From Jimgerdemannia flammicorona (taxonomy: Eukaryota), in contig RBNJ01000070.1 of NCBI GenBank assembly GCA_003990765.1, positions 1 to 44,256 on the forward strand: a stretch of DNA of 44,256 bases, read 5' to 3'. Shown here piece by piece: positions 64 to 44,256 of the stretch. The notes under the pieces are model-generated. The model made no database searches and was not told the origin of the DNA. It was given only the letters and a program-made list of their open reading frames with translations. Within the stretch, counting starts at the first letter, position 1. Each line of letters starts with the position of its first letter. The position numbers were made by a program, and so were the translations under genes.

Positions 64-68
<5 letters not shown>

Positions 69-214: not shown

Positions 215-216
215 TT

Positions 217-233: not shown

Positions 234-782
234 AGATTTTAAAAAAAATTGATGTGACTTTTTAGCTCATAAGAACCCACAGTCAAACTGGATATATTTG
301 ATATAACACCAATCTCTGCCACAACAGAAGAACTAGTTATTACCAGTATTTGGACAGGAAGAGAAGTAATCACCTTAAGACTTACCAACTATCCAATATC
401 AGAAGGATCTCAATCAGAAACCAGTATAGCCCAAAATCCTCAATCAGAGCAACTAGACAACATAGGTAGCCCTGCTAGAGATCTTGAAGAACTTGCACAA
501 GAACTAGAAGATCTCATTACATAAGTCTGAGATCTTACAACCAGATACTCCATATCAGTTCCACCAATTTTTCCCAAAGAATTCTTATCACTAGCTCTTG
601 TAGAACTGGAAGTAGCTCCTATAAGAATACCTAAACTCATTCTACTTCGTCCAAGGTCCAGAACACTATCCTCAAGATACCCAAGCACTCCTATCTCTGG
701 TAATAGTTCAGAAAGTGAATCAGAGTCAGAATCTGAATCAAAATCTGGACCAGAACCAGAATTAGAAGAAAGTGATGATGAA

Positions 783-4707: not shown

Positions 4708-4748
4708 GGCAAAAGGTCTCAGAAGAAAAGAAAGGCCCCTCTGCGACC
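4701..4748 (+). promoter_or_regulatory. Decayed -1 ribosomal frameshift signal of element A
   Basis: AGGAAAT at 4701-4707 (CpG-decay form of GGGAAAC) plus stem ggtctcagaag/cctctgcgacc; RT continues in the -1 frame. Confidence 0.7.
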
Positions 4749-6169: not shown

Positions 6170-6303
6170 ACCAGAAGAAGGGTGTCTCAAGGAACTATAC
6201 TCCAAAGGAAGCTCCTCAGACCATCAAGGCACAAAAAGATCTCATCTGAAAAGAACATCAGAAAGCTCACCAAGAACAAGCAAAAATAGAAGAAAAGTTG
6301 TGA

Positions 6304-12888: not shown

Positions 12889-12919
<31 letters not shown>

Positions 12920-13653
12920 CAAGTATATTCTTATATTTATAGAACATCTGATCAAGTGGCCTGAGGCTTTTCCAATAGAAATCACAGATGTCTTAACCAT
13001 TGTAGGTCTTCTCCATAGACTTACACTCAGATATGGACCCCCAGAAGAACTCATCTCTGACTGAGATACAGAATTCGTCAACAATATAATTACAAGTTAT
13101 ATCTGAATTCACAAGATCTGCCTTAAATGAACTACATCATACCACCCCCAGACCAATGACATGACAGAAAGAATAAATCAGACTATCAAGAAAGAACTTG
13201 CCTGAGTCAATCCTACCAACTGAGATCTCTGCTTACCTGAGATCCTATGGGAAATTCAGAACACTCCTGCTGTTTCTACCAAACAAAAACAATTTAAAAT
13301 AATATTTGTCAAGAAAACCAGAACTACTGACCATGAGAATCTTGGAGACCTCCTTAAGAAGACAGAACAGTTACATAATCAGACCTGAGTTCAGATTACC
13401 AAAGCCCAAGAAAGACAAAAGAAGTACTATAACCAGAAGTAAAAGGATCAGGAGATCAAGATTGAAGATCAAGTACTAGTCTAGAGAAGCATGATTGAAA
13501 CAAACTTTGCTACCAAATTGGAGCCCAAATGAGAAGGACCTTATCTTATATATAATATCAGAGAGACCAGTATCTATTTAAGAAGTATAGATAGATGAAC
13601 TCTGAGAACACCAGTATACATCAATCATCTCAAGATATACCTCTCCCCACATC

Positions 13654-14169
13654 ATGAATCAGAGAGTTGACAATTATCTTCAGACTCTTATCCTTAGCTC
13701 ATTTCAATCACTGTCAGTTCCCCTACCCCAATTCCAAGAAGTCAATGGAAATATCCTCTAGAAAATTCAGATTCATCAAGAGAATCTTGTTCTGGTCAGA
13801 TGATTGCTACAGGTCCATCAACTTTAGACCCATTATGCAATTGGAGAACAATTGCAGAACCTCCCAGTCTCAGAACAAATATATATCAGAAATACCACAG
13901 GACTATCAAGGAGAGATATCACTGCTGTAGACAGGCTCTATATCCTTTATAAACAAAACCCTGCAGCTCTGATACAAGCAAAATTCTTCTGGTATAATGT
14001 ATGGGGAATGAACCTAGCCATCTATATGAGCATCATCAATACTGTCGAAATCCTATTTCTAGAAGAAGAAGAAGAACCCCTAGAATGGAGCAACTATGAT
14101 ATAGACAATAAAGATGATAGAACAGGTATTGATACAGAAGATGCCTATCTATACTGAGATGATAACTAA
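13654..14169 (+). pseudogene. Element A extra ORF after integrase (accessory gene family shared with the LTR ORFs of B and C)
   Basis: MNQRVDNY...HQL*THYAIGEQL...TAVDRLYILYKQNPAAL...acidic tail; one frame, stops are transition-type. Confidence 0.65.
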
Positions 14170-14199
14170 AGGAACAGACCATCCTTTAGTGGGAGCTGA

Positions 14200-15423
14200 T
14201 GTGATACACCAAAATATACCACTTAAATTATAACTCAGATAACATGAATATATAGTATAGTAACCAGACACAGCAACCATTGCTGCAGAAAACTATATAA
14301 ATAGTCAGACTACCAGATAAGGTATATCTGTATAGGACTTACACACCTATGTCAGATCTATATACTTGTGCTGAACCTGTACAACTTACTATAAGTAGCA
14401 AATCTATAGTTAGCCATATAGTAATCAGATAGCAACTACAATATATAAAATACTCTAGAGATAAGAGTGAATAAACCTCAGTCTAAATTAAATCTAAAGC
14501 AAAAGTTAAGTCTACCTACTATACTTTGAGAGGAACTCTATAGTCACTGCTAGGAGATTGTGAGTAAAGTATTTATTTTTACTCTAGTCCACTTTCTGAT
14601 ACAAAGAAGAGTTTGAAGAACTTTACTGCCTTTTGAGAAATCTACCACTTAAGGAATAAACTACTATATTTTAGTTTGTTTGTCAGATAAGTCTGAAGAT
14701 TTGCTGCCCAAGTTTAAGGAAAACTTCACTACTATTTCCAAGTTATCTATATTCCCAAAAAACCCAATCCTTATCACCAAGCCAGTCTATTTGATGTAAC
14801 TTTGCAGTGGAGCCAGTCTATGATATAACTCTATATAAATAAAGCCAGTCTTTAATATAACTTATCAAAAATCCAAGTTATTAGTTTGTTCCAAGTGAGC
14901 TTAATTCAGGAAGAATTTACTACCGGTATTATTTCCAGTAAGCTACTGATTCAGGAAGAATCCATACCATTCTCTATTCCTAGTAAGTCTGGTATAGAAG
15001 AATCTATGATATTTAAGAAGTCTACTAATTTAAAAGAATCTGTACCCAAATTAAGTTATCTGCCAAATCACACTATTATCCAGAAATTACATACTTTTGG
15101 AGGTTGCTATACTATACAAGAGATCATCATGCAGAAATCATATACTTTTAGAGATTGATACTCAAGAAGGAAAACTACTAAATTACTAGACCATTATGTA
15201 TAAAGAATACCTATACCATATATCCAAAATCACTGCTATACCCAGAGAACCATCCAAATTAGGAAATTGACATATAAATTACTTACAGATATCCAGCTTT
15301 GACTATTATATCACTAAACACCAAGAACATTTTATTGCTTTTGACAAAGTAACTGAGGGCTCAAGCTAAACTACATCAACTCCCAATCTTGTAATTTGCC
15401 TCTATTGAGTCAGATATATTACA
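14200..15423 (+). repeat. Element A 3' LTR (~1.2 kb)
   Basis: TGTGATAC...TATTACA ends; purine-rich AGTGGGAG just upstream; TATA-AATAAA-TCAGT at ~14442-14483. 5' boundary inferred. Confidence 0.75.
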
Positions 15424-25490: not shown

Positions 25491-27021
25491 TGTCATATAG
25501 TGGTCACTGAGTTTTTCAAATATACCAGATTCTCTTCAAGGTGTATCTCTTAGACTAACTCAAGTTTGTTATAAGTAAGTTCTTATTAGAGTACCTTTCC
25601 AAGGTCTTATAGTCCTCAAACTTCTTATCTTTAACTATCTTGTTATCTCTTAGATTGCTTGCAAGGAAGTGTGTATAAGTGAAACTGGAACTAACTTTAT
25701 TTCAGAGGAAATAAGAGGAGTATTTATACAAAATATAATTCAATAGTTGCTAAGATATAAAGCTAAATATAAATTCCAAAACTAAAACTACTAAGTTTCA
25801 GGGTCAGCACTGATGGTTGTACAGGTTTAGAATGCTGATATAATTCAGTATCACATCAGAATACTGGTGCTGGAACAATTTCGCATCACCTCAGAATGCC
25901 AGTACTGGCATTATCTAGTGTTATATGAGAATATCGGTGCTGGCATTATTTAGTGTAATAAGGAACTTAGAGCAGAAAGTTCAGAACCAGGGGGGCTTCA
26001 TCCTCATCATCATCATCATCATTGAAGGAGATGAGATCCACAAATTCATTATTTTTGTATGCTTTGATGTCATATGGGATAATGTCATCACTGATGACAT
26101 CATCATGTTTGGTGGCAGGAAAAATCAGGAACAAGATCTGGAGCTCTCCAGTCTATGAGGTTCTCTTCCACAAAATAGGGGACAAATGTGGGGTCTTGGG
26201 GAGATTTAACCCAGATACTTAGGCCTTAGAATACTGAGATCAACCCTTACAGGAATTGGTCTGGGTTATCCTGGAGGATAGGGTGCCAGAAGTCTTCTAC
26301 TTCATCACTATTGAGGGTGATAGTGGACTGGGCTTCTGTAGCCACTCTGGCTTCTAGTGCATTGATATGGCAGGATGATAGGTCTCTGAAATCTGAGCCT
26401 CTAATATACTCCAAGTTGGGGATTGACCATAGTGCATACCTGAAGATCTGATGGATCTTCTTAGCTATTCTTGTTTTGTGTATATCCATAGAAGTGGCAT
26501 CTTGTAGCTCTTGAGTGCTGGCCTGTAGGAACTCCCAGCAGAGGAGGTTTCCTATTTTGTACTTCTGCTACATTTGGAGGCATTTGGTAGCAATGGTGAT
26601 TCTTGTTTCATTTTACAGTGGTAGAGGATAAAGTGATAGGGATCTGCAGTACCCAGGTTGATACTAGGAGTCCTTCTTGAGTGGGTCCTCATAGCTCTTC
26701 TGATGTCTTGGAACATTCTTTCTTCAACTGAGATGCCTTGGTAATTCCTTGACCTTGAGGTTTGGTGAGCAGCAGGCATTTTATTTGTGATAAGTCTTTG
26801 AGCTATTTTGGGATTGGTGGTTCTTATTGGTTGCTGCTACTGTGGTTCCTTGATCCTTCTTTTATATTCTTCAGGATGCTTATACTGTAATCACAATGAC
26901 TTACAGTTGGTCATCATTGCTCATCTCATATGCCATATGATCTCCTTATACTCTGATCTGATAGCTTGCAAGGAAAGGTTGTCTCCTATACTGATGTCAT
27001 CATTCTGAGGTCACCATTACA
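25491..27021 (-). repeat. Element B 3' LTR (1531 bp)
   Basis: Direct repeat of 32714-34280; TG...CA ends. Confidence 0.95.
25967..26779 (-). pseudogene. LTR (U3)-encoded ORF, 3' LTR copy
   Basis: MPAAHQTSRS...; joins ORF-track pieces 26552-26779 and 26247-26489; small frameshifts. Confidence 0.75.
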
Positions 27022-27031
27022 TCTTCCTCCT
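27022..27031 (-). promoter_or_regulatory. Polypurine tract of element B
   Basis: AGGAGGAAGA immediately before the 3' LTR TG on the minus strand. Confidence 0.85.
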
Positions 27032-27334
27032 GAATAAGGATCTTCTCAAGCATCCTTATTCATTGGTCCAGTCTTGAAAAATTTGCTGATCCCATAACCT
27101 CTGACAAGGGGTCGAAAAGTGGTATTTATGGGCTGGTGTCTTTCCTTTGTATTTTGGTGTGATGGTGAAGGGTCGCTCTCTTCATATAGAGCAAGGGCCT
27201 GATTCTGATCTTGACCAATCAGTTGATGGTTCAAACTCCTCTGACTTTGAAAGTCTCATGGATGAGTAGTTGCCAGTGCTGTATCTCTTAGAGAATGGTC
27301 CAGACAGATAGCCTGCTGGTCACAGAACATATTG

Positions 27335-28576
27335 TTACGATTCACAGACTAGAACCTCATAGGCAGTCATTACATTTTGCTTCTCTTGTATAGGTTCATG
27401 GTACTTCTTGAGTCTGTTCCTATGTACCATGGTAGGCAGTATGGTCCCTGAGATTTTTCTAAGCCAGAAGGTGGTTCCCTTGATATCTTGCATGTAGAAG
27501 GGTCCTTCCTATTTGGGCTCCAGTTTTCATGACCATGAGGCTTCTACCATATTTTGATACAGTAGAACCTTTTCTCTGATTCAGATAGGTTCTAGGGCAT
27601 TGTGATTCTTTTCCACATTCTTCCTTGTCAGTACTTGTAACTTGGTGATGTAATTTTCAGCCTTCTTCCTGATTTGGTATAGTCTCCAGATTTCTACATC
27701 AACCCATCTCTAAGTTAGGTCTAGATTCGTGGCTGAGGTTCCATCAGAATCTTCTTCTCTAAAGAGCAGCTCTCTTGGGGTAAAGTGTATGCTCTGTGAC
27801 CATATGTTTCATAGGACAGAGAGGACAGTTGGGAGATAGTTATCCCAATTCTCATATGTCTCTGAGATCTTTGCTAGGATGTTCTTAAGGGTCTTGTTGG
27901 TTCTCTCTGTCTGTCCATTTCCTTGAGGGTGGTATGCAGTGGTCTTGATGTGCTGGATCTTGTATTTCTGATATATTATCTCATGGAATCTATTGACAAA
28001 TTCTGTTCTGCAGTCTGTTGTGATTTGCTTTGGTGTCTTGTAGTGGCAGATGATTTCTTGGTATAGGAAGTTGGCCATAGAGAGGGCATTGGCTTCTTGT
28101 AATACTCCTACCTCTATCCATTTGGTGAAGAGGTCTACAATAACTATAATATAGTAGTTTCCTGATAGTGTTACTGGTAGTGGTTCAATGATATCCATTG
28201 TGATGTGGTGGAAGGGGATAGGCTCAATTCTTGATGACCCAGATGCCTGGTCTTGCTGATCTTGTTTCTGTTTTTGGTACTTGTCACACTCTTTAACAAG
28301 CAGGTCTTCTTCTATCTTAGACCACTACATGGTTCTTCTTGCCTTATCATATATGTTGGTTCCTCCTAAGTGTCCTTGCTCGTATACTTCCTTCATTACT
28401 TGATACTTCTTGTGTTCAGATATTACTAGCTTTCCTCCTTTTCTGAGTGTAGTGTTGTCTAGTTCAAACTGTTTCCAAGTCTAGTTGATGATGTTGATTG
28501 TCCAAGGTTCAAGGTGGTTGGGCATCTTCCACTACCCAAGGTAGCTGATTAATCCATAGTATAGCTTCTTGTTCAT
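27335..28576 (-). pseudogene. int: Element B integrase with its own ATG
   Basis: MNKKLYYGLISYL...GHLGG...ECDKYQ; MDIIEPLP, TTD, ERTNKTLK, EGPFY; no chromodomain seen. Confidence 0.9.
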
Positions 28577-28601
28577 GTTGAATAGTCTTGATGAGAGTGT
28601 T

Positions 28602-31600
28602 TTAGAGTGTCCTTGAGAGTACATCAGTATTGGTGTTGGTCTTTTCTGAGCAGTGCTTGATAGTACAGTCATACTCTTGCAGCCTGTAGATCTATCTGGT
28701 ATATATTCCTTTGGGGTTCAGAGTGTGGAATAGCCAGGCAAGAGCAGAGTGGTCTGTTTGAATGGTGAAGTGTTTTCCAGCTAGGTAGTAGTGGAACTTA
28801 TCTACTGCCCAAACTACTGCTAAGCATTTGAGCTTGCATGACTTGTAGTTCTGTTCTGCTTTGTAGATACCTCAGCTTATATAGGAGATGATATATTCAT
28901 GTCCATCTTTCTTCTGAGCTAGAACTGCTCCAAGTTCTATAGCACTCATATCTGTCTACAGGATGAATTCTAGGTTCCAGTCTGGTCTTCTGAGGATAGG
29001 TGCTTGAGTCAACCTAGTCTTGAGTTCATTGAAGGTTTCTTAGTACTTCTTGGTCCATTCGAATTTGGTCTCCTTCTTCAGTAGCTCATAGATAGGTGCT
29101 GCAATATTGGAATATCCTTTGATGAATCTTCTGTAGTAGCTGGCCAGTCCAAGGAAGGCATAGACTTCTGTAGTTGTTCTGGGTCTTGGGTAGGCTGCAA
29201 CAGCCTCAATCTTCATGGGGTCTGTGTGGATTCTGGTCTGGTTGATGAGGTGTCCTAGGTAGGCAATTTCTTGAGCTGCAAACTTACATTTTTTGGGCTT
29301 GATGTAGAGGCCATGCTCCTTGAGCCTCTTGAGGGCTAGCTGTATGTGATTGACATGTTCTCATGCAGTGTTGCTGAAGATGATCACATCATCAACATAG
29401 ACAAAGAGCCATTTTCCAATCTTGTTGCTGAAGACTCTGTTCATCATTCGCTGAAAACTTACTGGGGCATTACATATTCCAAATGGCATTTGCAGATAGA
29501 TATAGGTGGTGTCAGGTGTGATGAAGGCTGATTTCTCACTGGCATCTTGAGTGAGATCAATCTGATGGAAGCCTGAGAATAGATCCAGGGTGGTGTAGTA
29601 TTTGGCTTCACTTCCAAGGGTGGTAAGGATTTCTTGAATATTTGGCAAAGGCTGCCTATCCTTCTTGATGATAGCATTGAGCTTCCTGTAGTCAATGCAG
29701 AGTCTTGGTGCAAACTCTCCAGGCTTGCTTTCTTTCTTTGGGGCAAGGACAATGAGTGAGGCCCAGGGGCTGATAGCTTGCTTGATGATCCTGGCTTCTT
29801 CCATTTTCTTGAGTTCTGCTCGCAGCCACTCTCTGTAAGCAGGTGGTATGGGTCTGGCTTTCTGGTAGATGGGCTTGGTATCATCAGTATCAACTTCATG
29901 ATAGTACTTGGGTTCTTGATTGTGGATATCTCTGAAGTCCATAGCAAATACTCCTTCATTCTGGTGCAGGATCTTGAGAAGTTGTTCCTCCAGGGGAAAG
30001 TTTTCTCCAATGATATATGTGTGCTTGTTCTGGTCCTTGTCTTTCTTGTGCTTGAGTTCAGTAATCTTGGTAGTGGTATAGGCTCCTCTTCCAGTAGATC
30101 CAAAGTCTTGTTCTCCTCTCTTGGTCTTGATGAGTTTGATGGCTTCAATGATCTTGGGCTTCTTGATTTCGTGGATCAGCATCTGGCCAATCCTGTCATA
30201 CTTCTTGACTTCGAAGGAGGTGGTGTGGTTGTGATTTTTGACTATGAGAAAAATCTCACCAGTGTAATTGGGGTCAATTACTCCTCCTTCAACTGAGATT
30301 TCACTTTTGGCCAGACTGCTCCTGATCTTGATAATTCTGGCATAGTTCTCTAGCAGCTTGACTCTAATTCTAGTATCAAGTAGGGTGGTGGTCTGTGGTT
30401 TAAGGGTAGCATCTTGAATACTGGCAAGGTCCATTCTTATGGCTCCTTTAGTCTTATATTCTGGGATCTTGACTTTGGGGTGAAACTTCTTGACCTTGAG
30501 GGTGATGTCTGATTCTTGTTCCTCCTCATCATCACTGTCAGCTTGGAGCTCTGGGGGCTGGTTATCTTCTTTGGCTTTCCTTTTTGCTTCAGCAGCTTAT
30601 TACTCATATTTCTGTTGGTATATTTTCCTGACTTCACTGATACAGAACCAGCAGTCATTCAGGTGTTCAGAGCAGTACATCCTAGTACCATGGGGGCATC
30701 TTCCTTGAGGGGTATAGCCTTCGATAATCTTATTGTACCACTGCTCATCTGTGAGCTTGGGTGTCTTATTCTTGTTCTTGTTCACCAAGTGCATGAAGAC
30801 CTCTGTGTCTTTTTCATCTTCTTTCTCTATGTCTGGTAGAACTCTTTTATGGACATTGATAGAGACTCGTACCTTTCTTCCTCTATAGTTGATCTGCATC
30901 TTCTGAGCATTGAGGTCAATGATGGTCTTGGCCTTGTGAAGCCATTGATTGCCAATAAGGATGTCATAGTTGGTGGCACTTGTAACAATTATGTCTACTG
31001 ATATGGTAGCTCCTCCTATCTTGATGGAGACTTCTTGGATTTTGCCAAGGAGGATAGCTCATGTACTATCTGCTGTAATATAGACTATCTTGGTGGACTC
31101 TTCAATGTCCCAGCCTAGGTGGTCAATTGTCTTCTTGCTCATGAGGCATTCTCCAGCACCAGTATCAATGATGGCATCAAAGATACAATCTTTGATCTGA
31201 TATAGGGTATAGGCTGATGTCTTGCACTAGTCTTTAGATTCTTTACCAGAGTTCTTGGATTCTTCCTGTGCATTGTGAGCTTCTACAATCTTGTACTCTT
31301 GATTCTTGGCAGTAGTTGCAAGTCCTACTCTCAACTGCTGTCTGAAGGCAGGGACTTCAGCTAGCTGTCCAAAGGTAGTATTGACCTTCTGTTCCTTGAG
31401 ATCCTTGTAGATGTCATACTGGTGGATCTTGATCTTGCGCAGCTTCTGTTTCTTCTTGCTTTCACTTTCTCCTAAGACTGGAGTAGTGCCTTCAATGATT
31501 TGACAGGCAGCTTCATCTAACTCTATGTCTTGATCAATTTCCTCGAGTTGGATCTTGCTTTGAATAGTGATAGCCAGGGTCTTCTTTGGTCTTCCAACTG

Positions 31601-32594
31601 GCTTGCTGTTGCTCTTCTTATCATAGGGCTTAGACTGGGTTCTGGTATCTTCAGTAGTAGGGTAGAATTCAAGCTCCTTATAGTATTCTTCATCATCAGT
31701 ATCACCAATCTCCTCGATGACTACTGCATTGGTTTGTTCTCTAGTTCTACTAGTATTGCTTGGTTGGGCTTTGTGTCTTGTTTCGGTCATGCAATTCTTT
31801 GCATAGTGGCCTTATTCTCTGTATCTGAAGCATGTGATATTGTGTTCTTCTGTAGTAGCTGCAAATCTCTGCACTGGTCTCCTGTTAGCACTTCGGACTT
31901 CTTTAACAACATCACCAAGGTGTGTAGTCATCTCAGCGAACTGCTTGGCAAGTTCTTCCACTAGGTCAGCTTTGGCTGTCTTGGGGGTAGGTGGGATTGG
32001 TTGTTTGTTTACAACTGTGGCAGGTAAGATACTAGTTGGCTTTGATGGCTTCATCTTGATGCTAGTTATTTTCTCTATTGAGTGTTTGGCAGAGTGTCTG
32101 GTAGTCCAATATCTCTATGCAAAGACCACTTTCTGATCAAGGGTCAGTGTAGCTAGGGTAGACCAGATTGCTAGGGCAATTTCAGGGTGAACTCCTTTGA
32201 GAAAAGTTGAATCTGCTATTTGTTCCTTGAGATGGTCATCATAGTCAGCCAAGACAATCTGGTGGCAGATTTGGGTATAGAATGAGTTGGGATCTTCACT
32301 AAGTTCCTGGCAGATAGTATTGAGTTGATCCTTGAGAGCTTGCTTGATCTCTTCAGTATAATATATTGTTCTGAGAAATGCCTTTATGTTGGCAAGTTTG
32401 GCTGCACTAGCATTAGCAATAGTGGCTGCATTTAACTTGTCTCTAGCAGGTCCTCTGAGGCTGACTGGTAGAAGAGCCAATTGAGCATCCATACCAAGGG
32501 CTCATATAGCAGTGAATTGTTCAAAGTCTTCAATGAAGGTCAGGATTGACTCTTCAGTAGTATATCCATAGAATATGGGGGGATGCATTTCCAT
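28602..32594 (-). pseudogene. gag-pol: Element B single-frame gag-PR-dUTPase-RT-RNase H
   Basis: MEMHPPIFYG; CFRYRE*GHYAKNC; IIDTGAG; RSSL, GVIDPNYTGE, RIGQ, RGEQDFGSTG (~30091-30505); YVDD; ends DVLSRTL*. All pieces share one frame. Confidence 0.93.
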
Positions 32595-32692
32595 CTTATC
32601 TTGAATTCTTGCAGGGATGACTCTTGTAGTCAGGGTAGTTATTGTGGGGTTGTTCGTTTTTCAGCTTGAAAGTGAGGGATTCATCTTGAATA

Positions 32693-32710
32693 ACTAGCCA
32701 ATGGGTACCA
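32693..32710 (-). promoter_or_regulatory. Primer-binding site of element B (cognate tRNA not assigned)
   Basis: TGGTACCCATTGGCTAGT 3 nt inside the 5' LTR end. Confidence 0.65.
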
Positions 32711-32713
32711 AGT

Positions 32714-34280
32714 TGTCACATAGTAGTCACTGAGTTCTTCAAATATACCAGATTCTCTTCAAGGTATATCTCTTAGACTAACTCAAGTTTGTTATAAGTA
32801 AGTTCTTATTGGAGTGCCTTCCCAAGGTCTTATAGTCCTCAAACTTCTTATCTTTAACTGTCTTGTTATCTCTTAGATTGCTTGCAAGGAAGTGTGTATA
32901 TGTGAAACCAGAACTGACTTTATTTCAGAGGAAATAAGAGGGGTATTTATACAAAATATAATTCAATAGTTGCTAAGATATAAAGCTAAATATAAATTCC
33001 AATAACTAAAACTACTAAGTTCCAGGATCGGCACTAATGGTTGTACAGATTAAGGATGCTGGTATAATTCAGTGTTATATCAGAATACCAGTGCTGGAAC
33101 AATTTCGCATTACCTCAGAATACCAGTGCTGGCATTATCTAGTGTTACATAAGAATACTGGTGCTGGCATTATTTAGTGTAACAAGGAACTTAGAGCAGA
33201 AAGTTCAGGACCATGGGGGCTTCATCCTTGTCATCATCATCATCACTGAAGGAGATGAGATCTGTAAATTTGTCATTTTTGCGTACTTCAATGTTATGCA
33301 GGATGATGTCATCACCAATGACATCATCATATTCAGTGGCAGGGAAATTGGGAACAAGATCTGAAGCTCTCCAGTCTATGAGGTTCTCTTCTACAAAATA
33401 GGGGACCAGTCTATGAGGTTCTCTTCTACAAAATAGGAGATAAATGTGGAGTCTTGGGGAGATCTAACCTGGATGCTTGGGCCTTGGAATACTGAGATCA
33501 ACCTTTGCAGAAATTGGTCTGGGTTGTCCTGGAGGATAGGGTGTCAGAAGTCTTCTACTTCATCACTATTGAGGGTGATAGTGGACTGGACTTCTGTAGC
33601 CACTCTTGCTTCTAGTGCATTGATATGGCAGGATGACAGGTCTCTGAAATCTGAGACTCTAACATACTCCAAGTTGGGGATTGACCATGGTACATACCTG
33701 AAGATCTGATAGATCTTCTTAGCTGTCCTTGTTTCGCATATATCCATGAGAGTGGCATCTTGTAGCTCTTGAATACTGGCCTGTGGGAACTCCTGGCAGA
33801 GGAGGTTTCCTATTTTGTACTTCTGCCACATTTGGAGGTATTCAGTAGCAATAGTAATCCTTGTTTCCATTTCATGGTAGTAGAGGATAAAGTGATAGGG
33901 ATCTGCAGTACCCAGGTTGACACTAGGAGTCCTTCTTGAGTGGGTCCTTATAGCTCTTCTGATATCTTGGAATATCCTTTTTTCAACTGAGATGCCTTGG
34001 TGGTTCCTTGACCTTGAGGTTTGGTGAGCAGCAGGCATTTCATTTGTGGTAAGTCTTTGAGCTATTTTGGGATTGGTGGTTCTTATTGGTTGCTGCTACT
34101 GCAGTTTCTTGATCCTTCTTTTATATTCTTCAGAATGCTTGTACTATGGTTACAATGACTCATAGTTAGTCATCATTGCTTATCTCATATGCCGTATGAT
34201 CTCCTTGTACTCCAATCCGGTGGCTTGTAAGGAAAGGCTGTCTCCCATGCTGATGTCATCATTCTGAGGTCACTATTATA
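32714..34280 (-). repeat. Element B 5' LTR (1567 bp)
   Basis: Direct repeat of 25491-27021 plus a 35-bp tandem duplication at 33371-33440. Confidence 0.95.
33191..34038 (-). pseudogene. LTR (U3)-encoded ORF, 5' LTR copy (~270 aa reconstructed)
   Basis: 164-aa open stretch, then *HPILQDNPDQFLQRLISVFQGP... and acidic tail FSDDDDKDEAPMVLNFLL*. Confidence 0.8.
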
Positions 34281-34798: not shown

Positions 34799-34854
34799 AA
34801 GTCTATTAATATATAATATAATAGTAGTATCAAAGAGGAAGACAGTATCATTCA

Positions 34855-35887: not shown

Positions 35888-36094
35888 TGTGACATACGCA
35901 ATTGAAAACAGAGTACTGGTGACTGCTAAGATCAGATGACATAATGGCATAACAATCAAATAGACAGTCTGACCCATTAGGTGATCATTCCAAAAGAAGA
36001 CAAGATGATCTAAGCCAAAATGAAGACCACGTTATTTAAGGAACCATACTCTACCTCAGGGATCAGCACTAAAGAACCAAGTACCCACCACACA

Positions 36095-37081
36095 ATGTCT
36101 CCCATTCGCCGATCCAACCAGACCTCCCACCGCTCTACCCCTTTGCCTAGCCCAAAGACCCTGATCTTTGAAGCTATCAAGAAGGCCATCTGGTGCCCAG
36201 ACACTTCCGAACACTTGAACTTCTATACTGAGGACCTTGGACACTTCATCAACTACCAGTATATAATAACCCAACAGCTCAAAGATACTACTGAATGAAT
36301 GACCCTCTGGCATGACTATGAAATCAGACACCGCCTTCGCAATGAGACTCAAGAAGATGACCAGGAAGACCTCATTGCCAAAATGTTAACCACCAGCTGG
36401 CTAATCAAGAGAGCTCTCCATGTCCACCAAATCTTCTGCCATATTTCCTAGGCTATAGCACACTTGCAAGGAGTAACAGCTGGTAGCCTCTCCCGCCTTT
36501 CAACTGAAGATGCTGACTGGATAGAATCTGAAGTAACCAATGCTATTGGCAGCAACTGCATTACCATAGGAAGCCAACAAACCGAACCTACTCAGCCAGG
36601 TTTCCACACCACCTCACTCTGAGACAACCATCAAGGTCACCTAATAAGTCTTATGGAGATATTCGAAGGACCACCCATCACTATAGAGGCACTCATTGGA
36701 GCTACCCCAACCACCCACCACCCTGTCAGCCACAATTCACACCTCATCATTTGGGAACCGAATCAAGAAGAAGTCCAAGAAGTTCCTGTCTTTGAAGAGG
36801 AGGCCCAAGAACTCCAAAACCCTGCCCCTGAAGAAACCCCCTCTGACACTGAAACTGACGAGCCTTCAGAAGAAGAAGAGGAGCAATAGAGAGTCTACCA
36901 GTCCTCTGTCTGCATTCAAGCTGTTCAAGGGTTGGAGAATGTTGTTGAAGATGACTGGCTACTTTTCTACCCCCTCACCTCTTGGCCGGTGCTTCCCCCC
37001 TTTGAGGAGAGATATGATGAAGAAGAAATCACAACCCAGCAAGATTTGCCCGCCACGGACAAAGGGTACTATTTCCTCTAG
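36095..37081 (+). pseudogene. LTR (U3)-encoded ORF of element C (~328 codons, 4 in-frame transition-type stops)
   Basis: One frame from MSPIRR to KGYYFL*; aligns over ~190 aa with element B LTR ORF. Confidence 0.78.
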
Positions 37082-37105
37082 AGTACTGCCCATCAGCCGT
37101 GAGAA

Positions 37106-37320
37106 CCCAGCTTTTGTCAGCAGGTCTGAATCCAGTGTTGCTACCCAGTACTACTGTTTTCAGCATTTTGTCAGTAGGTCTGAATCCAGCATTGCCACCC
37201 TCCACAACTGCTTCTGGCAACAATCATCGTATCATGTCAGCTCATCCGAATCCAGCGTTGCTACCCAGTACCACCATTTTCAGCATTTTGTCAGCAGGTC
37301 CGAATCCAGCATTGCTATCC
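37106..37320 (+). repeat. Tandem subrepeats in element C U3
   Basis: 4 copies of tgtcagcaggtctgaatccag.rttgc. Confidence 0.8.
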
Positions 37321-37448
37321 CCTACAACCCAATCCGTAGTAAACAATAGCCTGCACCTCGCATCGTGCAAACCAATAGTATGAGTTCACCACAACATAGT
37401 ATACCTTAGCCTTAGTTACACCCTCTCCCCCCATAGCTAGCAAACTTG

Positions 37449-37488
37449 TATAAATAACCCATATTCTTAGAGTGAATAAACCTCAGTC
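37449..37488 (+). promoter_or_regulatory. LTR core promoter / poly(A) module: TATA, AATAAA, TCAGT initiator
   Basis: agagtgaataaacctcagtc identical to 14464-14483 in A; equivalent module in B at 32913-32951 (minus). Confidence 0.75.
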
Positions 37489-37649
37489 AGCTTGTGTTTA
37501 AAAAGTAAAAAGGATTACAAAAGAAACCACTGCCTCCAAGAGACCGGATAAATTCTGAGAACAAGATAACAACCTAGAGCAATGGATCGCTCAGAAGTTT
37601 GAGTTAAAGAATTTTCTCTTACCACGGAAAGAAAACGTTACCTGACTGC

Positions 37650-37875
37650 CGCCATTCGAGACCCGAGACCCAGCCAAGGATTCAAGACCAGACCGCCATT
37701 CGGACTGCCATTCGGACTGCCATTCGAGACCCGAGACCCAGCCAAGGATTCAAGACCAGACCACCATTCGGACCACCATTCGGACCACCATTCGAGACCT
37801 GAGACCCAGCCAAGGATTCAAGACCAGACTGCCATTCGGACTGCCATTCAGACTGCGCATTCAGACTGCCATTCA
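37650..37875 (+). repeat. Nested tandem repeat in element C R/U5 (12-bp ccattcggactg within ~68-bp units)
   Basis: 3x ccattcgagacccgagacccagccaaggattcaagaccagac. Confidence 0.85.
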
Positions 37876-38355
37876 AGATTCAAGATCCAGAAACCCAAGG
37901 ATACCCAGCCAAAGGATACTAGGCCGCCAAAGACCAACCCGCTGCCAATCGAACGACTGCCAGGAACCTTTCAAGATTAACCAAGACGGATGAGCGAGCC
38001 ATCAACCTCCATTTTCCCAACCTACTGCACCATGAACTGCTTAAAGTCAAGACCGTCGCCCGCTTCAAATCAACCGCATATTCCGCTAAAGTTTATCACC
38101 GCTGGCACACCCAAGTAACCACCCTCTGTTAGTAACAACACCTTTTTTCACTGAATATTGAGCCACCATCAATGTCCTGAGCCAACGAACAATCTCTCGC
38201 TAATTATCAATTACCGCATAAATCGAACGAGCCGATCACGTGATCAATGACCTGCGAACGTCACCAATGCATTCAGTTATCCATCGTGCGCTTCACCAGT
38301 GACACACATTGAGCCGTGTAGTTGAAGTTCATTATACATAACTGATGCCACATTT

Positions 38356-38373
38356 TGGGGGCTCAACTGGGAA
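38356..38373 (+). promoter_or_regulatory. Primer-binding site of element C, tRNA-Pro-like
   Basis: TGGGGGCTCAACTGGGAA resembles the tRNA-Pro PBS TGGGGGCTCGTCCGGGAT. Confidence 0.8.
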
Positions 38374-39252
38374 AGTTTTCAAAAGACTTGACCATTTGGC
38401 TCAAGAACCCAGCTATCTACAGTGGAGAACTTAGCAGGACCAAGTCAGCAACCAAACCAGGGGCAGCAACAGCCCTCCTCAGCAGAAAAGAAAGCCCACA
38501 CCCTTGTCAGAACAGTAGCCAGGACCCTATTCAACACCAGTAGCCAGAAAACCAAATCAGAAGAAAGAAGTGACCCAGACTACGGTTTGACTTCAAGAGA
38601 AAGGAGACGACTCAGAGGACAACCAGAACTGCCCCTTCAGATCCAAGACTTAGGCCAAGAAGAAGAAGAGAATATTCCTGAGGAGTATCAGACCCTTATC
38701 CATAGGAAGAACTCAGACAGAAGTGACTACATAACTACTGTTGTTACTCGAGTCACTCTACTAGACCGGGTATACTTTGAAACATCAGAAGGAGAAGAGG
38801 ACTATTATCCATATCAACCAGAGCAAGACGATGATTGGGGATCAGACTATTAAAGGGATGAATTCAACCTATACTATTATCCAGACAGCGACACTGACCC
38901 ACAGCAGCAACCAGATGAACAAGACCTCACCACTTCACAACAGCAAGGGGCAGACAAACTCACTATCAGTTATATCAGTCCACTCCCACTATCAGTTGCT
39001 CGAACTTCAGTACTCTGGTCACTCACACCTCGCCACTATCACCAGTCCATCAGAAGATCTCCACCACTACCCAGGACTTCAACTCTAGCATTAATTAGAA
39101 GGGCCAGATTACCCTCACCCTCACCAAGACACTGCCCTCTGCCAGCACCACTAGATCATCAAGTACTAGCACCACCACCTTCCCCATCACCCTGAGGATC
39201 TGCCAGATCCCCTACCCCTGAACAATACTCAGATAGTGAAGACGAGCCAGAC

Positions 39253-42200
39253 ATGAGCTACTTTCAGAAGTTCCATGGTGCAGACAATGAAGATATCAAG
39301 GAATTCTTTGGAGAAATTGAAGTTCAAGCAGCCACCAAACAATGGGATGCTGCGAGAAAACTCAGAATTGTGGAGTCGCTCCTGAGAGGACCAGCCCTAC
39401 AGAGGTATAATCAAGCCAAGCAAGCCGGAGGAGAAATCCATACAGAGGAACTGAATGATGGCCTTCAACCTGATAGGAACCATGTAGCAAGATACATGAT
39501 TCACAAAGCCTGGCTCCGTGCCCAGTTCAATGGATTCGAGCGCCAACAAGAAGCACAGGAGGCTTTGACCTATATGAGCCAAGCTGCCAATGAAACCCCC
39601 AAGAGTTTCTACTATCGGATTTAAGCTCAAATGATCAAGGTGAACCTTCAACCAGCAGTCCAACTGGCCCTAGCCTCAACTACCTTCCTCAATGGCTTAT
39701 ACCCAGAACTCTGAAGGCAAGTTATCAGGATGGGATATCAAAACATTGAACAGCAAGTTGCTGGAGCACAAGGATGTTGGGAAGCAGATTATAGACCAGT
39801 ATAACAAGTACAAGGCTATCCTGAGCCAATCTGAGCCAAAACCTCAAGGACCTGAGGAATAACCATGGAGCAAGAGAATGCCTTCCTCAGAGCCCAGATA
39901 GCCAACTATGAGAACAGACCAGCACCTACAAATCCAACTCCATTCAGGCAACCACAGCAGCAGCCACCATCAAGAGTTCAAGAAGACCCCATGACAACGC
40001 TCACCAAGCAAATGAAGGACCTGGCCATTGCAGTTACTCAGCTGAACAACCAAGGTAGAAGACAACAAGACTACCATCGTGATAACCGACCAGACTACTG
40101 GCAACAAGACAACAGAGGTCCTGCCCCCACACTATCAGCTACAACTACAGCCTCACCAGCGACTGGTTTCTATGGTCCCACCTGCTCCAACTGCAAAAAT
40201 CAAGGCCACATCCAGAGGAATTGTCCAAGAAACCAATCCACCCAGTTCAATGACAGAAATGTCAACCTCTTTCAGGTAGATGAAGAGACTCAGGAGATGG
40301 AAGAAGAAGCAGCCTGGCTCCATGGTCAAGAAGATGATATCTACCCATACTTTGAGGCCTTTTCATCCAAGGTGACATGGGAAGCTGCCCCAGCAGAGAC
40401 CAGAGGATGAGGAAGACTATGAAGAAACCCCCCACCTCAACTGCCAGTAATAATATCCACAGGCAAGCATCCGCGACATGGCCATTCTTCTTCAGACACT
40501 CCACAAGAACAGGAGAAGCAAGTGAGAAGAGATACTCCTGAACCAGAAGCCGGACCATCTAGGACAACCCCCAGCTCTACTTTGCCAGACCTTGAAGAAG
40601 ATGAGTATATGAGCATAGAATCTTCAGCTGATGAAATGCCCATCAGGAATGAGAGACTACACCCTAAGGGACCAAGACACCAAAGAAGCAGCAAGCCCCA
40701 TGCAGCAGCCTCACTTTGGGAACATATCCATCTACAGAATGCTGGTCTTACAGTTGAGCAAGTCCTCAAGAATGCACCAGAAGTCAGGCGAAAATTCCTG
40801 AAAGAAGCTAAGGAAGACACCAAGAGACTTCCAGTCCAAGGACCACATACTCAAGAACCTAGCACTATCCACACAGTCCATGAGAGCCAGCGACATGAAC
40901 ATCAATCTACAAGACTCACCAATGGAAAAGTGCATGGTGAAAATGCCAGAATTCTCATCAATACTGGAGCAGCAGTATGCATCATCACCCAAAGAATGTT
41001 GGAGCGAATTGGATGGGGAATAGATGAAGGAACCAAAGCAAGAGTTATCATGGCTGACGGATCAGCTTCCACACCCCTTGGACTTGTCAGAGACATTCCC
41101 ATTCAAGTTGGAAAGGCCCGCCTCAATGTACCCAAAGCTGTCGTGACCCCCGCAATCTCCTATGACCTGATCCTGGGAACTGACTGGTTAAGCTGAGTGG
41201 GAGCCAATGTAGATATCAAGAAACAACTCCTGGTCTTCTCCACTCATGGACAGAAGCACAAGGTGCCCATTGACTTGAAAGGATTATCTAAAAAGACGAA
41301 TCAAGCCTCAGAAACAGAATGGCAAGGACATGGCGACACCCCCACTACTACTGAGGATGAAAGTAAGGCCAATTTCCTACAAGAACTAGGAAGTGATTTC
41401 GATGCCCCAAGGGACCAAGAAAGCGAACAAGAAGACTCTTTCATTGGAGTTATTGGTATTGAAGGCCTGGAAGAAAGCATTGATAGAGCCATTAATGCAA
41501 GGGCAGCACTTGAGTTTGCAGGACCCTCTGCTCAACCACCACCACTACTGGTAGAAAATCAGATCATGCGAGCCTTTCATCAAGGCATATGCAAACACTT
41601 CATCAGCTTCCACTCACCAAGAGATGATTGCAGCAATTGCCGAATCCTGGATCTTAAGAAGGTTCCAATGCCAGAAATTGATGACAAGGATGAATTGAAG
41701 CAAGCACCATCCCACAGCCAAATACAACCTCCAACCCCAAAGACCTTCAAGAAGACCTATAAGGAAGGACAAAAGATCCTCGCCTGCCAAACATTCGAGT
41801 CCCTTACCATCGAAGGAGAAAGCAACAGCTCTTACACTATCACTCGGGCCCTCCAGATCACACAGCCCACCTATGATAAGTATCAGAAGAGATTCCCTAC
41901 CAGTAGGGAGGTCAAACAGCAAAATGAAGACTTTGTCAAAAAGGGATATTGTGATTGTGGAAAAACCTTTACCTGCTATTAGTGTGAACATCGAGACATT
42001 CACCTCAGCGAAGATGTCTACAAGAGCCGAGTCAAGAGAAAGGACCCCACCCTGCAAGAACCTTGAATTCGCTGGGTCTGTCGGAAGTGCAAAGAAATCA
42101 ACCATGAAGGAGATTGCAAGTTCAAGAACAAGACCTCCATCTGGGACCTACCATTGGAAGTTCTTGCCATCATTCACTGGTACTGCCGCCCTCATCAAGG

Positions 42201-43164
42201 AAAAGAAGGTATCAATCTTGTCTTCATCCTTATGGAAGCTCTGGACCCTCTAGGAAAGACTGGATTCAATTACACAAGAAACTCAAAGACAGGAGCTCAC
42301 TGGCCTTTCTTCAAACTGGAGTGCATGGACTTCTCACCTACAATGGCAACAGCTGAAGTGCCATTTCTCAAAGCTCAACCAATTATCCAGATCAAGCTGC
42401 TTTCACCCTGGGCACAGCCACCTCTTGCACAAACAGAAGGATCAGTTGGCTATGACCTCTGCCTCCCCTACCAAGCAAGAATCCGACCCAGAAGTACCAG
42501 GACTTTTGACCTACAGATCGCACTCGCTATACCACCTGGGCATTATGGACAATTGGCCTCAAGATCCTCATTGGCAACCAAAGGAGTCACAGTAGAAGGA
42601 GGAGTCATCAATCAGGACTACCGAGGTCCCTTGAAGGTCATTATCCACAATTCTAGTAGAACCAGCCGATTCTTCAGTCCTATGGAAGCCATCTGCCAAA
42701 TCCTGTTTATCAAGATATTACAGCCAACCATCCAAGAGGTAGACTAACTAGAAGATACCAACAGAGAACAAGGAGGCTTTGGAAGCACCAATAGAAATCT
42801 ATGGACACCACCTATCAAGGTTCATTTGGCAATAGTTGCTCAATTCTGACAAATGAGACCCCACATCTGCCATCCAATCTGAGCAAGAGAAGATATCCTC
42901 CTACAGCCCTACCAGCAAAAAGGCCTAGATGTGCACCTACCAGTAGAAGCAAACAACTTAATATTTGCACCATCATTGGAGCTTCAAAAGGAATACCACA
43001 TCCTCCTGGCTGAAGAATGAATTCATGACCAGATGTCACCAATCCACATCTCTATCAAAAACTCGGGCTTCGAAGTGATAACTATCTCCAAGAGAACAAC
43101 ACTGGGATATTTCGAACCACTGATAGACATCTATGAGGAAGAAGTCTTCGAATTCTTGGGAAAC
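39253..43164 (+). pseudogene. gag-pro-dut: Element C ORF1: Gag, CCHC knuckle, protease, accessory block, dUTPase, dUTPase-like domain in one frame
   Basis: FHGADNEDIKEFF; CSNCKNQGHIQRNC; ILINTGAAV (D>N) and DLILGTDWL; GYDL, RSSL, GVINQDYRG, GGFGST. Confidence 0.92.
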
Positions 43165-43203
43165 AGCAAGCCCTCTCTGGTGAGACTGATGGTACCAGGG
43201 AGG
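43158..43203 (+). promoter_or_regulatory. -1 programmed ribosomal frameshift signal
   Basis: In-frame G GGA AAC, 7-nt spacer, 10-bp stem cctctctggt/accagggagg; RT is in the -1 frame. Confidence 0.82.
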
Positions 43204-44256
43204 AAGACTCAGCAAATTCAGCAATCAAAGCCGTTGACATCGAGACAACTCTAACCAAGGACTAGCAACAACAAATACAGGAGTTAATAGAGGAGTACAA
43301 AGATATATTTACCACCACATATGATAACTTCCCACCATATCAATATGGAGAACACCCTATACATACTGGAGATGCAAGACCAATCCGACAATGACCCTAT
43401 CGAACACCACATCATCTGATTGAATTCGAACAATAACACATAGATGAAATGCTATGAAATGGAGTCATCAGACCTTCATCAAGTCCCTGGGCTTTACCAG
43501 CAATCATAGTACCAAAGAAAGGAGGATAGAGATTAGTCGTGGATTTCAGAAAACTCAACAAAGTTACCACTGAAGATGCCTATCCACTGCCAAGAATTGA
43601 TGACCTCATCAATGCCCTTGGAAAAGCCAAATACATGACCACTACCAACCAGTTCCAAGGATTCCAAGTAATATCCATTGCCAAAGAAGATATCTGCAAG
43701 ACGGCCTTCATCACTAGACGAGGACAGTATGAATACCTATGAATGCCCTTTGGACTCTGCAATGCACCTGCCTCATTCCAACGAATGATGAACTGTGTCT
43801 ACCGGGACCTTATCGGAAGAAATGTGCTAGTGTACATAGATGATGTAATCATCTACTCTGAGACATTCAAGCAGCATTTGCAAGACCTCTGCAAAGTATT
43901 CAATACCATTCGAAATTCAGAACTCAGACTCAATGCCAAGAAGTGCTTCTTCAGAAAACATCAAGTCGAATATCTAAGATATGTTATTTCAGCTCAAGGA
44001 ACACATGCCAACCTCCACAAGGTGGAGAAAGTCAAGAACTACCCAACCCCGACCTCAGCAAAGGAGACCCTATCCTTTCTTATACTGGCATCCTACTATC
44101 GATGATTCATCCCAAGGTTTTCAGATAAGGCAGCACCTCTCCGAGATATCTCCAAGAAGGACCAACCATTCTACTGGAAAGAAGAACAACAAAAGTCATT
44201 CGACCTACTCAAGAAGGTCCTTACCGAAGCCCCTGTCCTGGTGTGACCAGACTTTG
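43165..44256 (+). pseudogene. pol: Element C reverse transcriptase (partial pol)
   Basis: VDFRKLN, YPLPRIDD, MPFGLCNAPASFQR, YIDD. Confidence 0.95.

What the first reader, a model, noticed from the sequence alone, without database searches (positions are those of the whole stretch)
38356..44256. Three dUTPase-bearing gypsy families with a complex-retrovirus-like architecture
Seen: A, B and C all have a trimeric-type dUTPase between protease and RT. B has a 4-bp TSD, A and C have tRNA-Pro-like PBS, neither visible integrase has a chromodomain, and LTRs are 1.2-2.5 kb. Known: retroviral dUTPases lie before PR (betaretroviruses), between RH and IN (non-primate lentiviruses) or after IN (ERV-L); dUTPase is uncommon in Metaviridae, and typical fungal chromoviruses make 5-bp TSDs. 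Inference: a distinct, diversified lineage.
Basis: partly seen in the sequence, partly recalled or inferred. Interest (0 to 1): 0.75.

Follow-up and report, generated by a model that had tools for sequence, protein, structure and literature searches.

The report
Four-gene gypsy retrotransposons carrying dUTPase
These are dead copies of three related jumping-gene families whose dUTPase enzyme is already known in such elements, but which encode integrase as a separate gene starting on the previous gene's stop signal and carry an extra unknown gene, in two families inside the terminal repeat.

Summary
Observation confirmed. Elements A, B and C are decayed Ty3/gypsy copies with a trimeric-type dUTPase between protease and RT, 4-bp TSDs, no chromodomain and LTRs of 1.2–2.5 kb; the PBS of C matches a host tRNA-Pro at 17 of 18 nt. 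The PR–dUTPase–RT order itself is published (PosPlaTy3-5, rotifer Juno/Vesta/TelKA, Burro; Tmt1 is cited for it), so that part is ordinary.

The lineage is still distinct. A, B, C and metagenome relatives form one RT-RH branch (SH-aLRT 99) inside a wider split-integrase group that includes Rhizophagus gene models. Integrase is its own ORF, with its AUG on or beside the pol stop (AUGA, UAAUG, AUG-nn-UAA); this points to termination–reinitiation, which the reviews I read list only for non-LTR retrotransposons. A and C reach RT by a −1 frame change after the dUTPase. A conserved helical ORF3 follows integrase and lies inside the LTR (U3) in B and C.

No named reference element was in the trees, and the dUTPase donor is unresolved. 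This scan noted the split integrase, the frameshift and ORF3 before on other pieces of this genome; I found them here before reading those notes.

The parts
35888..38352 (+). Element C 5' LTR (2,465 bp, TG..CA): coding U3, TATA at 37449 followed 26 nt later by AATAAA, long repeat-rich 3' part
   Evidence: two-LTR copies are 12.0-12.9 kb long with a 4-bp ATAT TSD
36005..37081 (+). ORF3 of C inside U3 (about 358 codons; broken by sporadic stops in this copy)
   Evidence: 0 stops shared among copies in frame over 1,050 nt, against 17 and 16 in the other frames; 27% identity over 142 aa to B's LTR ORF, E 8e-14
38356..38373 (+). Primer-binding site of C, complementary to host tRNA-Pro(CGG)
38392..39252 (+). 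Leader frame of about 290 codons, continuous with gag and lacking a shared AUG
   Evidence: shared-stop tracking; meaning not established
39253..43254 (+). ORF1 of C: Gag (CCHC knuckle at 40183), protease (40960), Cys/His-rich insert of about 370 aa, dUTPase, pre-RT spacer; ends in a shared stop
42385..42789 (+). Trimeric-type dUTPase of C, all five motifs recognisable
   Evidence: PF00692; best solved relative 2okb, E 5e-23
42790..43150 (+). Degenerate dUTPase-like spacer without catalytic motifs, shared with A and weakly with other gypsy elements
   Evidence: hhalign score 21.3, E 0.006, against 8.9-13.6 in 20 column shuffles; weak hits to pre-RT spacers
43158..43203 (+). Candidate -1 ribosomal frameshift: G GGA AAC heptamer in the ORF1 frame, 7-nt spacer, 11-bp stem
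   Evidence: 28 rows; the stem alone is not significant, z -0.64
43157..44256 (+). ORF2 of C: RT (YIDD at 43833) in the -1 frame; RNase H, integrase and 3' LTR lie beyond the contig end and were read in other copies
25491..34280 (-). Element B, complete: LTRs 32714-34280 and 25491-27021, TSD ACAT, single ORF Gag-PR-dUTPase-RT-RH from 32594
30108..30494 (-). dUTPase of B
27335..28576 (-). Integrase of B as a separate ORF (+1 frame); AUG-AA-UAA junction in the family, with that stop altered in this copy
   Evidence: pol stop at the same place in 20 of 21 copies, AUG in 20 of 21
33195..34038 (-). ORF3 of B inside the 5' LTR (second copy starts at 26779 in the 3' LTR); lower end approximate
   Evidence: 0 shared in-frame stops over 840 nt, against 6 and 16
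63..6301 (+). Element A, 5' part: LTR remnant 63-214, tRNA-Pro PBS 217, ORF1 from 783 (Gag-PR-insert-dUTPase-spacer), -1 frame change at about 4701, RT-RH, ATGA stop-start at 6166-6169
12911..15423 (+). Element A, 3' part: rest of integrase, ORF3 from 13654 overlapping the integrase end and lying in front of the LTR, 3' LTR 14200-15423. Integrase also includes 6835-7041, cut off by two later insertions

Best explanation
A, B and C are dead copies of one old clade of chromodomain-less Ty3/gypsy retrotransposons of a probably early-diverging fungal host (host inferred from the nearest named relatives, not identified). The genomic RNA holds three or four successive ORFs. Shown: ORF1 encodes Gag-PR-(Cys/His insert)-dUTPase; RT-RH follows in frame (B and most relatives) or in the -1 frame (A, C); integrase is a separate ORF with an invariant start Met; ORF3 is a conserved all-helical protein, behind integrase or inside U3. 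Inferred: (1) ribosomes slip -1 at G GGA AAC, so Gag-PR-dUTPase is made in excess over RT, as at a betaretroviral pro-pol junction (recalled); (2) ribosomes that stop after RNase H restart at the overlapping AUG, so integrase is a free protein that enters the particle by binding RNA or Gag instead of being cut from Pol; (3) the dUTPase keeps uracil out of the cDNA; (4) integration prefers alternating purine-pyrimidine, AT-rich sites and leaves a 4-bp duplication; (5) ORF3 regulates the element's own RNA or shields it from silencing, which is the weakest step.
For: Pol stop fixed at the junction in 11 of 11 C, 9 of 9 A and 20 of 21 B copies that hold the junction (2 of 11 A rows lacked it). 51 of 80 metagenome loci showed both the RNase H end and the integrase start, and none was fused. 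After dropping 3 mis-called loci, the 48 left fell into 32 clusters; in the 18 clusters closest to B, 17 have a member with the stop within -5..+8 nt of the AUG. 16 of 16 scored clusters did so, against 3.2 expected from shuffles. The offsets are the forms listed for termination-reinitiation (AUGA, UAAUG, AUGnxUGA; PMC5972666, PMC10275272, passages). Met1 is invariant in 34 of 34 aligned integrases. RT lies in the -1 frame in 28 of 28 C rows and 11 of 11 A rows, with the 0-frame stop at one codon in 26 of 28. A profile built only from 7 metagenome ORF3s finds A's ORF3 (best E 2e-8) and, weakly, the B and C LTR ORFs (E 0.014, 0.017). Trees.
Against: No translation or RNA data. No shared upstream structure and no TURBS-like UGGGA motif (1 of 16). 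The shuffle test ignores shared descent, and a Met-Asn start creates AUGA by itself in the -1 frame. 9 of 14 more distant clusters have spacers of 27-139 nt instead of an overlap, so overlap is not needed across the whole split group. In A and C integrase would depend on a frameshift and then a restart, which gives very little protein. The C stem is no more stable than shuffles (z -0.64); in A a G GGA AAY heptamer survives in only 2 of 11 rows, and CpG decay as the cause is inferred. The bootstrap tree did not finish. The dUTPases do not form one branch in their own tree (3 changes, none forced by strong branches).
Confidence: 0.62

Rival explanations
1. The split integrase is real but is translated from a subgenomic mRNA (splicing or an internal promoter in RNase H); the stop-start proximity only reflects compact packing.
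For: A has a pyrimidine tract plus YAG just before its AUG; 9 of 14 distant clusters have spacers; this route avoids the double attenuation in A and C; Cer1 makes its extra protein from a spliced mRNA (PMC10309623, passages).
Against: Only 5 of 16 clusters have any YAG within 40 nt of the AUG; RNase H tails of 11-29 codons stay open right up to the AUG, and six different offsets all fall within 8 nt.
Confidence: 0.24
2. Integrase is joined to Pol by recoding (frameshift or read-through) at the junction, so a normal Pol-IN polyprotein is made at low level.
For: The integrase frame is open for some codons upstream of the AUG in many copies, and A and C already change frame elsewhere.
Against: The integrase frame is -1, +1 or 0 relative to pol in different families; no common slippery site; Met1 is invariant.
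Confidence: 0.07
3. An already described fungal dUTPase-gypsy clade (Tmt1, PosPlaTy3-5, Phanerochaete elements, Ylt1 or SN_1006) with the same layout, so nothing is new.
For: The PR-dUTPase-RT order is published; no named reference sequence was in my trees; chromodomain-bearing rows lie near the split group in one tree (SH-like 98).
Against: Tmt1 has a chromodomain (PMC12581995, passage); most of the surveyed fungal elements have one Gag-Pol ORF or two ORFs (PMC2864245, section 5); nine literature searches found no separate-integrase gypsy clade; the link to the chromodomain rows is unresolved in the IQ-TREE run.
Confidence: 0.15
4. The breaks are mutational decay of dead, CpG-depleted copies.
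For: The window copies are full of stops, and CpG observed/expected is 0.01-0.24 in the coding parts.
Against: The breaks are at the same positions in nearly all copies and are present in metagenome relatives with uninterrupted ORFs of 1,281-1,746 codons.
Confidence: 0.01

Closest known systems
dUTPase-bearing fungal Ty3/gypsy elements: PosPlaTy3-5 (Postia placenta), Phanerochaete elements, Tmt1 (Tuber) (PMC2864245 passages and section 5; PMC12581995 passages; original Tmt1 and Phanerochaete papers not seen)
   Same: dUTPase in pol, between PR and RT in PosPlaTy3-5; Ty3-type RT; fungal setting
   Different: Here no chromodomain, 4-bp TSD, tRNA-Pro PBS, separate integrase ORF, -1 shift after the dUTPase, conserved ORF3.
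Bdelloid rotifer Juno, Vesta, TelKA (PMC5408684, passages) and planarian Burro (PMC6431247, section 7)
   Same: dUTPase between PR and RT; GPY/F integrase without chromodomain and varied ORF3s (rotifers)
   Different: Animal hosts; integrase drawn as part of pol; ORF3s are env, GDSL esterase or DEDDy nuclease, whereas this ORF3 matched no family or fold
Termination-reinitiation in caliciviruses, influenza B, fungal CHV1 and HvV190S, and the non-LTR retrotransposon SART1 (PMC10275272, PMC5972666, passages)
   Same: Overlapping or adjacent stop and start: AUGA, UAAUG, AUGnxUGA
   Different: Among retrotransposons these passages name only SART1 and LINE-1; no TURBS motif or shared structure was found here; the downstream product is integrase
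Cer1/CERV of C. elegans (PMC10309623, passages); MMTV sag and the betaretroviral pro-pol frameshift; foamy virus Pol packaged apart from Gag (these three recalled, from no call)
   Same: Extra regulatory ORF at the 3' end or in U3; protease/dUTPase made in excess over RT; an enzyme packaged without fusion to Gag
   Different: Likeness of layout only: no sequence or fold link, no env, and the RT is not retroviral

Membership tests
Ty3/gypsy (Metaviridae) | Domain order Gag-PR-RT-RH-IN between TG..CA LTRs, with PBS and PPT | tested here: met
Ty3/gypsy (Metaviridae) | RT closest to Ty3 among solved RTs | tested here: met
   Ty3 RT E 2e-64; foamy and caulimoviral RTs E 9e-41 or weaker
Ty3/gypsy (Metaviridae) | Integrase is the last domain of the Pol polyprotein (usual layout, PMC3248453 passage) | tested here: not met
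   separate ORF
Chromoviruses (including Tmt1) | Chromodomain at the integrase C-terminus | tested here: not met
Chromoviruses (including Tmt1) | 5-bp TSD (seen for beet chromoviruses in PMC3605345; for fungal ones recalled) | tested here: not met
   4 bp in A, B and C
Chromoviruses (including Tmt1) | RT branch within Chromoviridae | tested here: inconclusive
   Sister to five unnamed chromodomain-bearing rows in FastTree, unresolved in IQ-TREE; no named references
PosPlaTy3-5 / Phanerochaete dUTPase elements | dUTPase between PR and RT | tested here: met
   PMC2864245
PosPlaTy3-5 / Phanerochaete dUTPase elements | Common RT/IN clade with those elements | not testable with these tools
   Their sequences were returned by no call
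Ylt1 / SN_1006 (non-chromoviral fungal gypsy clades) | Phylogenetic grouping on RT and integrase | not testable with these tools
   No reference sequence at hand
Retroviridae | Retroviral-type RT and env gene | tested here: not met
   Retroviral rows fall outside; no env-like ORF in full copies
Trimeric dUTPases | Five motifs, including the motif-3 Asp and the Gly-rich tail | tested here: met
   R-S, G-x-I-D, Y, Q, R invariant in 9 of 9 aligned rows; activity not tested
Termination-reinitiation (TURBS type) | Stop and start overlapping or adjacent, out of frame | tested here: met
Termination-reinitiation (TURBS type) | Upstream 18S-complementary motif in a structure | tested here: not met
   UGGGA in 1 of 16; no shared fold
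Termination-reinitiation (TURBS type) | Downstream expression depends on upstream termination | not testable with these tools
   Needs reporters or ribosome profiling
-1 programmed frameshift | X XXY YYZ heptamer in frame, spacer, downstream structure, -1 ORF | tested here: inconclusive
   Heptamer GGGAAAC/T in 27 of 28 C rows and the -1 ORF are met; stem not significant; weak in A

The most novel reading that the evidence does not exclude
An undescribed Metaviridae clade that makes integrase as a free protein by stop-restart translation and packages it in trans, adds a betaretrovirus-like frameshift between dUTPase and RT in one branch, and carries an accessory gene of no known fold that was captured into U3 and then swapped with the LTR between lineages. 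B's ORF3 is closer to C's than to that of B's RT sister L090, and C's is closer to B's than to that of its RT sister A.
Probability: 0.45. Interest if true: 0.82.

Novelty: new variant of a known kind. Interest (0 to 1): 0.66.

Why it matters
LTR retroelements are taught to deliver integrase as part of Pol. A wide clade that encodes it separately shows that another packaging route and another translation rule can work, and near-intact relatives make both testable with short reporter fragments. It would extend termination-reinitiation to LTR elements. It also explains why gene predictors call these integrases 'IS30 transposase' or 'InsO' or bridge the junction in a fungal gene model. The U3 gene is a candidate retrotransposon regulator of unknown fold in genomes where these families are abundant (at least 150 close matches each for B and C in G000, which is the display cap). 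The dUTPase alone would not matter much.

Tried and rejected
1. dUTPase position as the novelty: rejected, published.
2. dUTPase donor: the tree of 68 rows and 139 columns is unresolved. The best prokaryotic and viral matches are 47% identical or less; the clade's enzymes join neither the cellular-type copy L194 nor any outside group with support. The AU tests did not finish.
3. ORF3 family and fold: Pfam gave only a sub-threshold Lenti_VIF_2 row (E 0.06), which I do not accept. Atlas best score was 0.88. The representative search gave 6 hits, all unnamed. The model of L114's ORF3 (pLDDT 84.6) had no match in PDB or BFVD at E<=0.001, and best Z was 4.2; this does not show that the fold is new.
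4. Fold of dUTPase plus spacer from a single sequence failed (pLDDT 34). A direct BLAST of the spacer against a dUTPase gave nothing. I first read the spacer as a tandem duplicate of the dUTPase; weak hits to pre-RT spacers of other gypsy elements, including the fused neighbour P0229, favour an older spacer.
5. Primer tRNA for B: no tRNA-like hit was recognised among the 96 pattern matches (the six fetched loci were not scanned).
6. A second tight stop-start at IN/ORF3: not general. The AUG usually overlaps the integrase tail by 1-131 nt, and in B and C it lies about 550 nt downstream.
7. Expression: no RNA holder was listed.
8. Viral contigs gave retroviruses and distant integrase matches, no clade member.
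9. The bootstrap RT tree did not finish; support values are SH-type only.
10. The Hizi and Herzig review has no passage on retrotransposons.


Full report
1. What is there. The window is contig C70 of G000 (231 Mb). It holds three decayed LTR elements: A (+, 63-15423, cut by two later insertions), B (-, 34280-25491, complete) and C (+, from 35888, running off the end in RT). CpG observed/expected is 0.01-0.24 in their coding parts against 0.97 in a host-like stretch. Because the window copies are broken, I fetched 11 other C, 20 B and 10 A copies out of the 150, 150 and 40 listed, picked for lying in long contigs.

2. Each family has a PF00692 dUTPase between protease and RT, with the trimeric motifs kept. 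TSDs are 4 bp, mostly ATAT, CTAT, ACAT or ATGT in AT-alternating flanks: B 10 exact of 15 rows with both ends, C 6 of 6 scored, A 6 of 7. The C primer site matches a host tRNA-Pro(CGG) at 17 of 18 nt, and A has the same site; B's primer tRNA was not found. LTRs are 1.2, 1.55 and 2.5 kb. The integrases have a GPY motif and end without a chromodomain.

3. The dUTPase order is known. PMC2864245 (passages and section 5) reports dUTPase between PR and RT in PosPlaTy3-5 and cites Phanerochaete and Tuber Tmt1 for dUTPase-bearing elements. PMC5408684 (passages) reports it for rotifer Juno, Vesta and TelKA, and PMC6431247 (passages and section 7) for Burro. PMC12581995 (passages) says Tmt1 has a chromodomain. 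I did not see the original Tmt1 and Phanerochaete papers, nor the supplementary structure table of PMC2864245 (an old .doc file, not requested), which may bear on ORF layouts.

4. Integrase is a separate gene. The pol frame ends at a fixed stop just after RNase H in 11 of 11 C, 9 of 9 A and 20 of 21 B copies that hold the junction. In C and A the stop overlaps the integrase start as ATGA (C 11 of 11; A 7 of 9, the other two ATAA). In B it is ATG-AA-TAA; the window's own B copy is the one exception for the stop. A natural B integrase frame found 104 relatives. I aligned the query with 33 full-coverage hits: Met1 is invariant in 34 of 34 rows and 31 begin there. That search was limited to 188-599 aa, so I also searched longer proteins. 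The 120 listed are 26-39% identical to the query and mostly fused Pol proteins of other gypsy groups; the Rhizophagus clarus model P0227 lacks the RNase H end and the integrase start, as a predicted intron over the junction would give (not checked on DNA).

5. The junction in relatives. Of 80 metagenome loci, 51 showed both sides of the junction and none was fused. I dropped L137, L154 and L168 as mis-called; the 48 left form 32 clusters at 70% identity. The 18 clusters nearest to B were chosen by their rank. Of these, 17 have a member with the stop at -5, -2, +1, +5, +7 or +8 nt from the AUG. L106 and L111 have an earlier stop but keep TAATG or TGATG at the start, and L122 is the miss at -47. 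Sixteen clusters were scored against shuffles: 16 observed within 8 nt, 3.2 expected; this ignores shared descent. Of the 14 more distant clusters, 5 are close (-2 to +17) and 9 have spacers of 27-139 nt. The close forms are those given for termination-reinitiation in PMC5972666 and PMC10275272 (passages), which name SART1 and LINE-1 among retrotransposons. Against this reading: no shared structure, UGGGA in 1 of 16. Against splicing: a YAG within 40 nt in only 5 of 16.

6. Frame change before RT. In C, RT is in the -1 frame of ORF1 in 28 of 28 rows (26 distinct copies; 3 short loci did not reach the site). The heptamer is GGGAAAC in 13 rows, GGGAAAT in 14 and altered in 1, in the correct phase; a stem follows after 7 nt in most rows; ORF1 stops at the same codon in 26 of 28. 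The stem of the window copy is no more stable than shuffles (z -0.64). A shows the same -1 step in 11 of 11 rows, but the heptamer is intact in only 2. B and the long relatives have one frame from Gag to RNase H. The shift therefore lies after protease and dUTPase, not after gag.

7. ORF3. The LTRs of B and C are long because U3 codes for protein: 0 shared in-frame stops over 840 and 1,050 nt, against 6-17 in the other frames, upstream of a TATA box followed closely by AATAAA in both. The two proteins are 27% identical over 142 aa (E 8e-14). A profile from 7 metagenome ORF3s alone hits 33 of 81 external loci (the 7 seeds included), 6 of 10 A copies at A's own ORF3 (best E 2e-8; a seventh hit is a B-type LTR in that stretch) and weakly the B and C LTR ORFs (E 0.014 and 0.017). 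In A and most relatives ORF3 overlaps the integrase tail; in B, C and L089 it lies about 550 nt further on. It models as an all-helical domain (pLDDT 84.6 for L114's protein) with no fold match. B and C ORF3s hit each other but not A's or L090's, although RT pairs A with C and B with L090. I infer an LTR exchange between lineages; it is untested.

8. Phylogeny. On RT-RH, A, B, C and 13 relatives form one branch (SH-like 99 among 175 rows; SH-aLRT 99 among 64 rows). A dUTPase is seen in 14 of these 16 rows (L093 through L094, a second contig of the same element); L102 and L113 are too short to tell. Long split relatives outside the branch lack it. All split rows together get 92, with one fused, chromodomain-less element (P0229) as sister at 95. 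Several 'split' protein rows are labelled only from ending after RNase H or from their neighbours in the tree, not from DNA. The nearest named relatives are Rhizophagus and Cetraspora gene models, hence the inference of an early-diverging fungal host. No named reference element was in the trees, and the bootstrap run did not finish. The dUTPase tree does not resolve a donor or a single origin.

9. Mechanism, shown and inferred. Shown: the ORF map, its conservation, the clade, TSD and PBS. Inferred: -1 slippage, stop-restart translation of integrase, packaging of free integrase, dUTPase sanitising the dNTP pool (the assumed role cited in PMC2864245), and a regulatory ORF3 by analogy with Cer1 CERV (PMC10309623, passages). 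The MMTV, betaretrovirus and foamy virus comparisons are recalled and come from no call.

10. Novelty. Nine full-text searches and passages of PMC3248453, PMC7175516, PMC3605345 and two preprints showed no gypsy clade with a separate integrase ORF or a U3 gene. The library lacks most subscription papers and Repbase reports, so prior description is not excluded. This scan's own notes report the split integrase, the frameshift, ORF3 and the Cys/His insert on other pieces of this genome. I read them after searches had shown these features, and they are not independent support. Verdict: a new variant of Ty3/gypsy, interesting for its expression plan rather than for its dUTPase.

Noticed in passing
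window 38392-39252 (C) and about 240-782 (A): Long leader frames continuous with gag (about 290 and 185 codons) with almost no shared stops and no shared AUG; possibly a non-AUG N-terminal extension. Relatives such as L105 also have an open stretch before the gag Met.
   Followed up: partly
window about 41300-42380 (C) and 2650-3950 (A): Cys/His-rich insert between protease and dUTPase, about 30% identical between A and C, no Pfam match; shorter Cys/His segments lie at the same place in B and relatives.
   Followed up: partly
window 7033-12910 +: LINE-type element with endonuclease- and RT-like motifs (read by eye), poly(A) tail and a target duplication of about 20 bp, inserted into A's integrase.
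   Followed up: no
window 6302-6835; related copies 15797-16317, 16319-16436, 17478-17791: Repeat of about 530 bp inserted into A's integrase; starts with TGTGACA and may be a solo LTR of another family.
   Followed up: no
window 34633-35888: Tandem arrays with 18-bp and about 67-bp AT-rich units between B and C; a related array lies near another C insertion in contig C122.
   Followed up: no
window 19307-20416 -: 369-codon open frame in a stretch without CpG depletion (about 18100-21700); no Pfam family and no Atlas hit above 0.76.
   Followed up: partly
L194 (G000:C6287:6598-6984): Intronless cellular-type dUTPase with a basic N-terminal extension and several changes in conserved motifs; could be the host gene or a decayed paralogue.
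   Followed up: partly
L195-L223 (G000): Another abundant repeat family with its own dUTPase, plus a further type in L214; neither groups with A, B or C in the dUTPase tree.
   Followed up: no
L135, L138, L139, L140, L145, L148, L155, L165: The spacers of 87-104 nt between the pol stop and the integrase AUG share a T-rich motif just before the AUG and seem to lack an AG acceptor (by eye); candidate restart or promoter element.
   Followed up: no
C copies, about 300 nt after the integrase stop (for example L039 about 5170-5480): The integrase frame stays largely open for about 100 codons after a stop shared by 11 of 11 copies; read-through or a relic, unexplained.
   Followed up: no
L107 177-8251: Integrase, ORF3, then gag to integrase again within 8.2 kb: two elements head to tail with little room for an LTR between them.
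   Followed up: no
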